From the NCBI RefSeq assembly GCF_003334815.1, contig NZ_QOWO01000061.1: a DNA stretch of 10,623 nucleotides, one strand, 5' to 3'. Below are positions 9,001-10,623 of the stretch, in pieces. The DNA comes from Escherichia coli (GTDB lineage: Bacteria > Pseudomonadota > Gammaproteobacteria > Enterobacterales > Enterobacteriaceae). Every line of letters starts with the position of its first letter. Position 1 is the stretch's first letter. Made by a program: the position numbers.

Positions 9001-10623
9001 CTGTCCAGCATGGGCAAGGCTTGATTAAATGCTGGTGAATTCTGATTGCCCAACTCCTCAATGGCGTGTGCCATGCCAAAGAGTTTCAAGGATTTGAGGA
9101 TTCTCACATGGCCTTCATGCTGCATCATGGGCTCTCCTTAAACTGTCATAGCGGTTCACGTTGGCCTGTGGTTCCAATGTCAGCCTTAACCCCTTGGGAA
9201 TTGGAATCGGTTTGGGTGGAGGTTCTTCGGTCAAACGTCCCAACAGATTAAGCACATGCTCCTTCGATGGCTTGCCACACTCCAATGCCAATTCCACAGC
9301 ACTGAGTACCGCACCTTCATCGTGGTGCAATACAAGGGCCAGAATTTCCACCATGTCACGGTCACCGCCGGGGCGTTGCAGCAAGATGGATTGAAGCTTC
9401 TTGAACGCGGGTGGCAATTCAGCAAATGGCGCACCATTGCGCAACGCCCCAGGTTTCTTCTGAAGCACAGACAAGTAATGGTGCCAGTCGTATTGTGTGT
9501 GGCCACGCCGAGCGTGGCCACTGCCAAACAATCTTGGATGCTCGGCAATGTGTTGGCCTTCGGCAGCCATCACCAGCTTGTCTGCATAAATCCGAAGGCT
9601 GATGGCCCTGTTGGCGTAACTGGCAGGAACGCTGTAGCGATTGCCCTCGTGGTGAACAAGGCAGGTTGAAGTGACTCGCTTGGTTTGCTCCACGAATGCA
9701 TCAAAGGCATTGGGTAGCGCCATCAACTCGCCTTGTTCATCGGCAAAGGCCTCTTGCACGGTTTGGTCCAATTCGGGGTGGCGCAGCTCAGACCACAGCG
9801 CTTTGCAGCGATGCTCAAGCCACACATTCAAATCAGCAAGGCTTTGAAAGTCTGGTGCCCCTTGCCACAGGCGTTGGCGGGAATCCTGCACGTTCTTCTC
9901 AATCTGGCCTTTCTCCCAACCCGATGCTGGATTACAGAACTGCGCATCAAACAGGTAGTGGCTGACCATGGCAGTGAACCGCTGATTGACCCTGCGCTCT
10001 TTGCCACGCCCCACCGAATCCACAGCGGTCTTCATGTTGTCGTAGATGCCGCGCTTGGGAATGCCACCGAAGATTTGAAAGGCATGCCAGTGGGCATCAA
10101 ACAGCATTTCATGTTTTTGCTGGTAGTAAGCCCGAAGCACAAAGGCCCGGCTGTGGGCCAACTTAAACTGGGCAATCTGAAGTTTGACCTGTTTGCCCGC
10201 TATGCGGGCAAAGTCCTCACTCCAATCGAATTGGAAGGCTTCGCCACAAGCAAAGCGCAAGGGGATGAAACAACCCTTGCCCGAGGTTTGCGCCTTGAAC
10301 TGTTCGGAATCTTTCCACTGTCGGGCAAAGGCACACACTCGGTCATAAGACCCGGTAAAGCCCAAAGCGACCAAATCCCGGTACATGCTGCGCAGGTTTC
10401 TGCGCAGCTTCTTTGTCTTTTTGTGCTCGGTGGAGAGCCACTGCCTTAACTTGGGCTCAAAAGGACTTAACTTGCCAACGCTGTCTCGCGCTGGGTACTG
10501 CGGTTCAACCACCTTGCTTTGCAAATACTTGCGAACGGTGTTCCTGGACAGGCCGCTTCGTCGGGCTATTTCCCGAATCGACGCACCATCGCGAAAATGC
10601 CAGCGTCGAATTGCGCTCAATAT

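What the first reader, a model, noticed from the sequence alone, without database searches (positions are those of the whole stretch)
9115..10623. istA/istB 14-bp overlap; istA start at or beyond the window edge, and whether a second IS (IS1353) interrupts this element cannot be judged
Seen in sequence: the istB start region overlaps the istA 3' end by 14 nt (9115-9128), the usual IS21-family coupling arrangement. The istA frame is still open at position 10623. Established knowledge: in In2 of Tn21, IS1326 is itself interrupted by IS1353, whereas related integrons lack that insertion. Within this window istA and istB are uninterrupted, so any IS1353 would lie beyond the window near the istA-proximal end.
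Basis: partly seen in the sequence, partly recalled or inferred. Interest (0 to 1): 0.3.

Follow-up and report, generated by a model that had tools for sequence, protein, structure and literature searches.

The report
IS1326 insertion sequence cut by window edge
This is the well-known insertion sequence IS1326 inside the class 1 integron of a Tn21-type resistance transposon, with its two overlapping transposition genes intact and its last 122 bases beyond the window; it is ordinary and already described.

Summary
On the minus strand istB (8343-9128, 261 aa) overlaps the end of istA (stop 9117-9115) by 14 nt, and the istA frame is open to base 10623. Both genes are 100% identical to IS1326 in hundreds of plasmids and pass the NCBIfam IS21 cut-offs.

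There are two refinements.
- **Overlap length.** istB begins ATGATG. The second ATG gives an 11-nt overlap of the form ATGNNNNATGA, which four of six sampled relatives share (one has 8 nt).
- **istA start.** It lies beyond the edge: 15 nt as annotated, or more likely 6 nt (GTG, 8 nt after a conserved GGAG). The in-window TTG at 10620 aligns with a conserved internal leucine.

IS1326 is 2470 bp (window 8276 to window-equivalent 10745).

The IS1353 question can be partly settled. The window carries a singleton 1-nt deletion in the aadA1 attC site. Its only exact match, E. coli ECOR 3 plasmid RCS85_pI, has uninterrupted IS1326 followed by truncated tniB, tniA, IRt and mer. Such IS1353-free Tn21 variants are already published. 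Nothing here is new.

The parts
8276..10623 (-). IS1326 (IS21 family): 2348 of its 2470 bp. The right terminus is at 8276. The left terminus would be at window-equivalent 10745, 122 bp past the edge.
   Evidence: The termini were read from L002 8348-10817, giving 2470 bp with ends TGTTGA...TCAACA. Identity is 100% to 622 plasmid records annotated as IS1326.
8280..8327 (-). Right terminal inverted repeat. It holds two tandem ~22-24 bp repeats, R1 (8280-8301) and R2 (8304-8327). These are the presumed IstA binding sites.
   Evidence: direct repeat D2, and inverted pairs I1-I3 with the left-end repeats L2 and L1 (L002 10756-10779 and 10790-10813, both outside the window). An L1/L2 and R1/R2 layout is described for IS21 family members in PMC10122671.
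8343..9128 (-). istB, the AAA+ helper ATPase, 261 aa from the first ATG (260 aa from the ATG at 9125). Walker A is GGPGTGKT and Walker B is LVILDE.
   Evidence: NF038214, 283.7 bits, cut-off 200; PF01695, 7e-81. The protein is identical to WP_000983249.1.
9115..9128 (-). istA/istB overlap, ATGATGCAGCATGA. It is 14 nt from the first ATG and 11 nt (9115-9125) from the second.
   Evidence: The 11-nt form ATGNNNNATGA is found in four of six sampled relatives.
9134..9138 (-). Shine-Dalgarno-like AGGAG for istB, lying inside the istA coding sequence. It is 5 nt before the ATG at 9128 and 8 nt before the ATG at 9125.
   Evidence: Read. GGAGG, AGGAG or GGAG sits at the same place in the relatives.
9115..10623 (-). 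istA, the DDE transposase, lacking its first 2-5 codons. The window holds 502 codons plus the stop. The catalytic residues are D138 (10227-10225), D200 (10041-10039) and E247 (9900-9898). The N-terminal HTH is at about 10620-10510.
   Evidence: NF033546, 326.6 bits, cut-off 160; HTH and Mu-transpos_C_2 domains. One search aligns it to IS5376 IstA (8q4d/8b4h), whose DDE is D124/D187/E233 (PMC10122671).

Best explanation
Positions 8276-10623 are the right-hand 95% of IS1326, a 2470-bp IS21-family insertion sequence. It sits between the 3'-conserved segment (orf5) and the truncated tni module of an In2-type class 1 integron in a Tn21-type transposon.

**Shown here**
- The element carries an intact istA gene (HTH plus DDE transposase, D138/D200/E247) and an intact istB gene (AAA+ ATPase with Walker A and B motifs).
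- The two genes overlap out of frame by 14 or 11 nt. An AGGAG lies just upstream of the istB start, inside istA.
- Each end has two terminal repeats.

**Inferred from the IS21 and IS5376 literature**
- Both genes are read from one transcript. Ribosomes finishing istA are already positioned on the istB start, so IstB synthesis is tied to IstA synthesis.
- An IstA tetramer synapses the L1/L2 and R1/R2 repeats.
- IstB assembles on target DNA with ATP and recruits and activates IstA.
- Abutted ends can create a hybrid promoter. The IS1326 ends are compatible with this: -35 TCAACA plus -10 TAAAAT with a 2-4 bp junction.

**Beyond the window**
- The true istA start is 6 nt past the edge (GTG after a conserved GGAG, the more likely site) or 15 nt past it (as annotated).
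- The most probable source of the window is the IS1353-free form: complete IS1326, then tniB-delta, tniA, IRt, urf2 and mer.
- In the R100 form, IS1353 lies 26 bp inside the left terminus. That splits repeat L1, and the -10 of any junction promoter, from L2 and from istA. This would be expected to cripple IS1326.
For: - **Identity and context:**
- **Families:**
- **DDE mapping:**
- **Ends and repeats:**
- **Overlap conservation:**
- **istA start:**. All seven elements share GGAGTGAT(A/C)NAC followed by GTG or ATG. In five of the six relatives that downstream codon is the annotated start. The TTG at 10620 aligns with Leu in all of them.
- **IS1353 position:**. R100 has 1616 extra bp starting 96 nt past the window end.
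- **Source lacks IS1353:**
  - The window equals NZ_LT985321.1 73-10695 exactly.
  - The attC deletion variant occurs in 1 of 2099 plasmid records. It occurs in no complete E. coli genome at full length and in none of the representative genomes of 100,044 species.
  - That record has IS1326 directly followed by tniB-delta, tniA, then IRt at L002 13471-13495, with the integron flanked by TCCAT repeats.
- **Mechanism literature:** PMC10122671 and PMC11208146.
Against: - Translational coupling has not been tested for IS1326. istB has its own good AGGAG, so it could initiate independently.
- No significant mRNA structure masks the istB start (z = -1.1; relatives +1.3 and -0.4).
- The window itself holds no base that distinguishes the IS1353+ and IS1353- forms within IS1326.
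- The link to the ECOR 3 plasmid rests on one 1-nt indel, which could be a sequencing error repeated, or arisen independently, in an unsampled record.
- Among plasmids with the same aadA1-only Tn21 arrangement, IS1353+ copies outnumber IS1353- copies: 10 against 2, with 2 unresolved.
- The hybrid-promoter match is only 9 of 12 consensus positions.
Confidence: 0.9

Rival explanations
1. The window comes from canonical Tn21/In2 as in R100/NR1, so IS1326 is interrupted by IS1353 96 nt beyond the window end.
For: R100, NR1 and at least eight further plasmids hold the whole window in one piece at 10623/10624 and carry the 1616-bp insert. Among all plasmid records, 223 hold the IS1326/IS1353 junction and 292 hold the intact left end joined to tniB-delta.
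Against: Every one of these copies has an extra C in the aadA1 attC that the window lacks (spans of 10624). The window's variant was found in a single record, which has no IS1353.
Confidence: 0.12
2. IstB starts at the second ATG (9125). On this reading the functional overlap is 11 nt, as in the closest relatives, and the 14-nt figure comes from annotating the first ATG.
For: ATGCAGCATGA aligns base for base with ATGCGTCATGA and ATGTCCAATGA in four of six sampled relatives. MQHE aligns with MRHD. The distance from AGGAG would be 8 nt, which is acceptable.
Against: In the relatives the Shine-Dalgarno sequence lies 5-6 nt before the ATG. In IS1326 that spacing matches the first ATG (5 nt). RefSeq annotates the first ATG. 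Both may be used.
Confidence: 0.45
3. The overlap is only compact gene packing. On this reading istB is translated independently from its own ribosome-binding site, with no functional coupling to istA.
For: A strong AGGAG sits at optimal distance. No significant local RNA structure would make istB initiation depend on upstream translation. Overlap length varies from 1 to 14 nt across the family.
Against: A stop/start overlap was found in all 12 family members examined here that had both genes annotated. Such conservation of the arrangement, though not of its length, is what selection for coupled expression would give. This is inference; no experiment on IS1326 is known to me.
Confidence: 0.25

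Closest known systems
IS1326 as found in In2 of Tn21 (plasmid R100/NR1, NC_002134) and described by Brown, Stokes and Hall 1996 (cited from memory and via PMC8155512 and PMC3796477)
   Same: The nucleotide sequence is identical over all IS1326 bases in the window. The position is the same, between orf5 of the 3'-conserved segment and tniB-delta. The istA and istB proteins are the same (WP_001324342.1, WP_000983249.1).
   Different: R100 has IS1353 (about 1613 bp plus a 2-3 bp duplication) 26 bp inside the IS1326 left end. It also has one more C in the aadA1 attC. The window's only exact match has neither.
Tn21-like transposons with an In2-like integron that has IS1326 but no IS1353 (pYT1/pYT2, PMC3796477; the Yersinia Tn2670 variant, PMC8155512; pTH1000, PMC10124037; ECOR 3 and ECOR 37 plasmids)
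   Same: The gene order is the same: tnpA, tnpR, intI1, aadA1, qacE-delta1, sul1, orf5, IS1326, tniB-delta, tniA, IRt, urf2, mer. The ECOR 3 plasmid matches the window exactly, 10623 of 10623.
   Different: Nothing differs in the ECOR 3 plasmid. The others carry the common attC sequence or extra insertions.
IS21 and IS5376, the biochemically and structurally studied family prototypes (PMC10122671, PMC11208146)
   Same: Both have two genes (an HTH-HTH-DDE transposase and an AAA+ helper), stop/start overlap, two repeats per end and TG...CA termini. The DDE residues align. A hybrid promoter on abutted ends is possible.
   Different: IstB is only about 37% identical to IS21 IstB. IstA is about 100 residues longer than IS5376 IstA. 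The overlap is 14 or 11 nt against 1 nt in IS21. No experiments on IS1326 were found.
ISThsp10-like, ISAav1-like and unnamed IS21-family elements of Burkholderiales and Rhizobiaceae (L004-L009)
   Same: These are the closest non-identical relatives, at 66-74% DNA identity over the parts that align. Most share the ATGNNNNATGA overlap. All share the GGAGTGAT...GTG/ATG region at the istA start.
   Different: They are different elements in different hosts, and none is associated with integrons in the loci examined.

Membership tests
IS21 family of insertion sequences | Two consecutive genes on one strand, with istA (transposase) followed by istB (helper) | tested here: met
   istA runs from 9115 past 10623 and istB is 8343-9128, both on the minus strand.
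IS21 family of insertion sequences | IstA matches the curated IS21 transposase model above its cut-off and has a DDE triad | tested here: met
   NF033546 scores 326.6 bits against a cut-off of 160. D138/D200/E247 align with D124/D187/E233 of IS5376 IstA. Pfam rve itself did not score; only the HTH and Mu-transpos_C_2 domains did.
IS21 family of insertion sequences | IstB is an AAA+ ATPase of the IstB_IS21 type with Walker A and B motifs | tested here: met
   NF038214 scores 283.7 bits against a cut-off of 200. PF01695 gives 7.4e-81. GGPGTGKT and LVILDE are present in the translation.
IS21 family of insertion sequences | Terminal inverted repeats ending 5'-TG...CA-3' with multiple internal repeats (L1/L2, R1/R2) | tested here: met
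   The right end lies in the window (8276-8327). The left end is seen only in the extension, L002 10756-10817.
IS21 family of insertion sequences | Target-site duplication of a few bp flanking the element | tested here: not met
   The flanks are ATATC and GGCCA. This is a property of this particular copy, not of the element. It fits the published view that IS1326 sits next to a deletion that truncated tniB (memory of Brown et al. 1996; the paper is not held).
IS1326 (a specific element) | Near-identity to the reference element over its full length of 2470 bp | tested here: met
   The window portion is 100% identical to copies annotated 'IS21-like element IS1326 family' in 622 plasmid records. 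The full length in the exact-match record is 2470 bp. ISfinder itself could not be queried.
In2 of Tn21 in the strict sense | IS1353 inserted within IS1326 | not testable with these tools
   The site lies 96 nt beyond the window. The only exact-match record lacks IS1353, so strict In2 membership is unlikely but not excluded.
In2 of Tn21 in the strict sense | IRi, intI1, a single aadA1 cassette, qacE-delta1, sul1, orf5 and then IS1326, inside Tn21 tnpA/tnpR | tested here: met
   IRi lies at window 4041-4065 (L002 4113-4137). IRtnp lies at window 2-39.

The most novel reading that the evidence does not exclude
IS1326 might make two IstA isoforms from its nested in-frame starts. These are the GTG at window-equivalent 10638 and the GTG at 10629, three codons apart, both just outside the window. 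IS21 does this with its transposase/cointegrase pair, which differ by 8 N-terminal residues. IS1326 might likewise make two IstB isoforms from its ATGATG start. The evidence here does not exclude this, but it points to a single main start for each gene.
Probability: 0.08. Interest if true: 0.2.

Novelty: already known. Interest (0 to 1): 0.04.

Why it matters
It matters little beyond correct annotation. IS1326 and IS1353 serve as markers for tracing the lineages of Tn21-family transposons and class 1 integrons in resistance plasmids. Three small practical points come out of this check.

- **istA start.** The RefSeq start overlaps its own ribosome-binding site. The true start is probably three codons further downstream.
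- **istB overlap.** It is 11 nt in the closest relatives, so 14 nt should not be treated as a family constant.
- **Lineage marker.** A single-base attC deletion identifies this copy as the IS1353-free ECOR 3 plasmid variant.

Tried and rejected
- **Original papers.** I tried to read the descriptions of IS1326, IS1353 and Tn21 (PMC178208, PMC103744) and the IS21 review (PMC11337337). None is held. Statements about them therefore rest on memory or on later papers that cite them.
- **attC deletion in representative genomes.** A scan of 100,044 species representative genomes for the deletion 30-mer gave 0 hits. This adds no extra context beyond the one plasmid record.
- **RNA structure at the junction.** Folding the istA/istB junction in IS1326 and two relatives gave no structure beyond shuffled controls. 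I dropped the idea of a structure-gated coupling mechanism.
- **Promoter and terminator scan.** The consensus scan of the full element found no sigma-70-like site upstream of istA on the coding strand in the single copy. Only the simulated abutted-ends junction gave a 9 of 12 match.
- **Pfam on IstA.** The search did not return the rve integrase core. I confirmed the DDE triad by alignment to the solved IS5376 IstA instead.
- **Antisense ORFs in istA.** I considered whether the long ORFs at 9733-10449 and 9256-9669 might be genes and rejected it. They lie in the codon-mirror frame and are bounded by the few TTA, CTA and TCA sense codons.
- **IS6100 / In4-type context.** Not present in the extended exact-match locus.

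Full report
**1. Observation**

On the minus strand the window has an ORF at 8343-9128 (ATG start, 261 aa). A second ORF ends with TGA at 9117-9115 and remains open up to base 10623.

These are real genes. The upstream product scores 326.6 bits on NCBIfam NF033546, the IS21 family transposase model (cut-off 160). The downstream product scores 283.7 bits on NF038214, the IstB helper ATPase model (cut-off 200), and 7.4e-81 on Pfam PF01695. RefSeq annotates the same 14-nt overlap in identical copies.

**2. What the element is**

Positions 8343-10623 are 100% identical to 622 plasmid records in which the genes are annotated 'IS21-like element IS1326 family'.

The whole 10,623-base window is the left part of a Tn21-type transposon:
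- IRtnp at 2-39
- tnpA and tnpR
- IRi at 4041-4065
- intI1, one aadA1 cassette, qacE-delta1, sul1 and orf5
- then IS1326

Using the extended locus L002, I placed the IS1326 termini at window 8276 and window-equivalent 10745. That gives 2470 bp with ends TGTTGA...TCAACA. There are two ~22-24 bp repeats at each end: R1 at 8280-8301 and R2 at 8304-8327 in the window, and L2 and L1 beyond it. The window therefore lacks the last 122 bp of the element: the istA start, its ribosome-binding site, and both left-end repeats.

This copy has no target duplication; the flanks are ATATC and GGCCA.

Both proteins look functional:
- IstA has an N-terminal HTH. D138, D200 and E247 align with the catalytic D124, D187 and E233 of the solved IS5376 IstA.
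- IstB has GGPGTGKT and LVILDE.

**3. The overlap, refined**

istB begins ATGATG, with AGGAG (9138-9134) upstream. The AGGAG is 5 nt from the first ATG and 8 nt from the second.

I collected annotated istA/istB junctions from 11 other IS21-family elements:

| Element | Overlap |
|---|---|
| IS21 | 1 nt |
| ISKpn7 | 4 nt |
| ISSen3 | 4 nt |
| A Streptomyces element | 4 nt |
| ISPst3 | 8 nt |
| A Burkholderia glumae element | 8 nt |
| ISThsp10-like, ISAav1, two rhizobial elements, a Ralstonia element | 11 nt each |

So stop/start overlap is indeed the family norm, but its length is not fixed. In the closest relatives the motif is ATGNNNNATGA. IS1326 has exactly this from its second ATG: ATGCAGCATGA, with MQHE aligned to MRHD.

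The 14-nt figure therefore depends on choosing the first ATG. Alignment of the protein and the overlap favours the second ATG, while Shine-Dalgarno spacing favours the first. I cannot decide between them.

The junction shows no RNA structure beyond shuffled controls. If the genes are translationally coupled, as the arrangement suggests and as is generally assumed for the family, it would be through proximity of termination and initiation and not through unmasking of a hairpin. That step is inference; I found no experiment on IS1326.

**4. The istA start**

In identical copies the annotated start is a GTG at window-equivalent 10638, 15 nt beyond the edge, giving 507 aa. That GTG overlaps the only Shine-Dalgarno-like sequence (AAGGAG, whose last G is the first base of the GTG).

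All seven elements compared share GGAGTGAT(A/C)NAC followed by GTG or ATG. In five of the six relatives that downstream codon is the annotated start, and in two of them it is an unambiguous ATG. The equivalent codon in IS1326 is the GTG at window-equivalent 10629, 6 nt beyond the edge, giving 504 aa.

The TTG at 10620, which the ORF lister reports as a possible start inside the window, aligns with a leucine in every relative.

The start is therefore beyond the edge, most likely by 6 nt.

**5. IS1353**

R100 (NC_002134), the classical host of Tn21, matches the window except for one extra base. It continues identically for 96 nt past the window end. It then carries 1616 extra bp, annotated as an IS3-family transposase, before the sequence resumes. 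This is IS1353 plus a 2-3 bp duplication.

The insertion point is 26 bp from the IS1326 left terminus, at the inner edge of repeat L1.

Across all plasmid records, 292 hold the uninterrupted left end joined to tniB-delta and 223 hold the IS1326/IS1353 junction. Among the 14 records that hold the whole window in one piece, 10 have IS1353, 2 lack it and 2 were not resolved.

Published work confirms both forms: In2 has IS1353 inside IS1326, and variants lacking IS1353 are known (PMC5640717, PMC3796477, PMC8155512, PMC10124037).

**6. Can the window be assigned?**

The window differs from R100 and from nearly everything else by a missing C in the apex of the aadA1 attC hairpin (around 6222-6224). 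The exact 61-nt variant occurs in:
- 1 of 2099 plasmid records with this attC
- no complete E. coli genome at full length
- none of the 100,044 species representative genomes

The single record is NZ_LT985321.1, E. coli ECOR 3 plasmid RCS85_pI. Bases 73-10695 of that record equal the window exactly.

There IS1326 is uninterrupted. It is followed by tniB-delta, tniA, IRt (L002 13471-13495), urf2 and the mer operon. The integron is 9383 bp and flanked by TCCAT repeats. The whole transposon is 18,055 bp.

I therefore put about 0.85 on the source being IS1353-free. The caveat is that one indel, possibly a sequencing error, carries that inference.

**7. Mechanism**

What is shown here is the parts list. 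The rest is taken from work on IS21 and IS5376 (PMC10122671, PMC11208146):
- An IstA tetramer synapses the two ends through the L1/L2 and R1/R2 repeats.
- IstB assembles on target DNA and recruits and activates IstA.
- Abutted ends create a stronger promoter from a -35 in the right end and a -10 in the left end.

Simulating abutted IS1326 ends with a 2-4 bp spacer gives TCAACA, then 16-18 nt, then TAAAAT, a 9 of 12 match. That is compatible with the same logic but is weak evidence on its own.

In the R100 form, IS1353 lies downstream of that -10 and between L1 and L2. That should disable IS1326. This is inference.

**8. Verdict**

The finding is accurate and its interpretation is sound. It describes a textbook element in a textbook context. 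The refinements are annotation-level details:
- an 11-nt versus 14-nt overlap
- the probable istA start
- the exact IS1353 site
- probable assignment to the IS1353-free ECOR 3 plasmid variant

Novelty: already known. Interest: very low.

Noticed in passing
window 6222-6224 (aadA1 attC, 6199-6258): The window lacks one C compared with R100 and almost all other aadA1 cassettes (GACGCGCTT against GACGCCGCTT). The exact variant occurs in 1 of 2099 plasmid records, the ECOR 3 plasmid. It removes one apical base pair of the attC bottom-strand hairpin (-14.1 against -18.8 kcal/mol) and leaves the core sites intact. It may be a real rare variant or an assembly error.
   Followed up: yes
window 5349-5427 (+): Rfam RF02912 (AAC_AAD_leader, 'putative aminoglycoside riboswitch / attI site') scores 73.9 bits against a gathering score of 56. 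The hit lies over attI1 and the start of the aadA1 cassette. This is expected for a class 1 integron.
   Followed up: no
window 9733-10449 and 9256-9669 (+): Two long ORFs (238 and 137 aa) run antisense to istA. They lie in the exact codon-mirror frame and are bounded by the only six TTA, CTA or TCA sense codons of istA. They are a frame artefact, not genes.
   Followed up: yes
window 8271-8275, and L002 10818-10822: IS1326 is not flanked by a target-site duplication; the flanks are ATATC and GGCCA. This is consistent with an adjacent deletion that truncated tniB.
   Followed up: partly
window 8276-8281, plus L002 10799-10804 (outside the window): If the two IS1326 ends are abutted with a 2-4 bp spacer, a sigma-70-like hybrid promoter appears: -35 TCAACA in the right terminus and -10 TAAAAT in the left end, a 9 of 12 match. 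This resembles the junction promoter described for IS21. In R100, IS1353 lies downstream of that -10.
   Followed up: partly
L002 10701-10715 (window-equivalent 10629-10643): The RefSeq istA start (GTG) overlaps its own Shine-Dalgarno-like AAGGAG. The GTG three codons downstream has the conserved spacing and is the annotated start in five of six relatives. The IS1326 IstA annotation is therefore probably three residues too long.
   Followed up: yes
L003 1035-4031 (ECOR 37 plasmid NZ_LT985306.1): In this otherwise identical, IS1353-free Tn21 copy, tnpA is 30 nt longer (2997 against 2967 nt). This is an in-frame insertion or duplication.
   Followed up: no
window 1, and L002 69-73 / 18129-18133: Window base 1 is the flanking base; Tn21 IRtnp starts at base 2. 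In the ECOR 3 plasmid the 18,055-bp transposon is flanked by TATTA and TAATT, which is not an identical 5-bp duplication.
   Followed up: no
window 5186-6196 (+): The ORF lister shows a 336-aa ORF. This is aadA1 (annotated 5405-6193 in identical copies) extended upstream through attI1 into the 5'-conserved segment. It overlaps the intI1 start region on the other strand.
   Followed up: no
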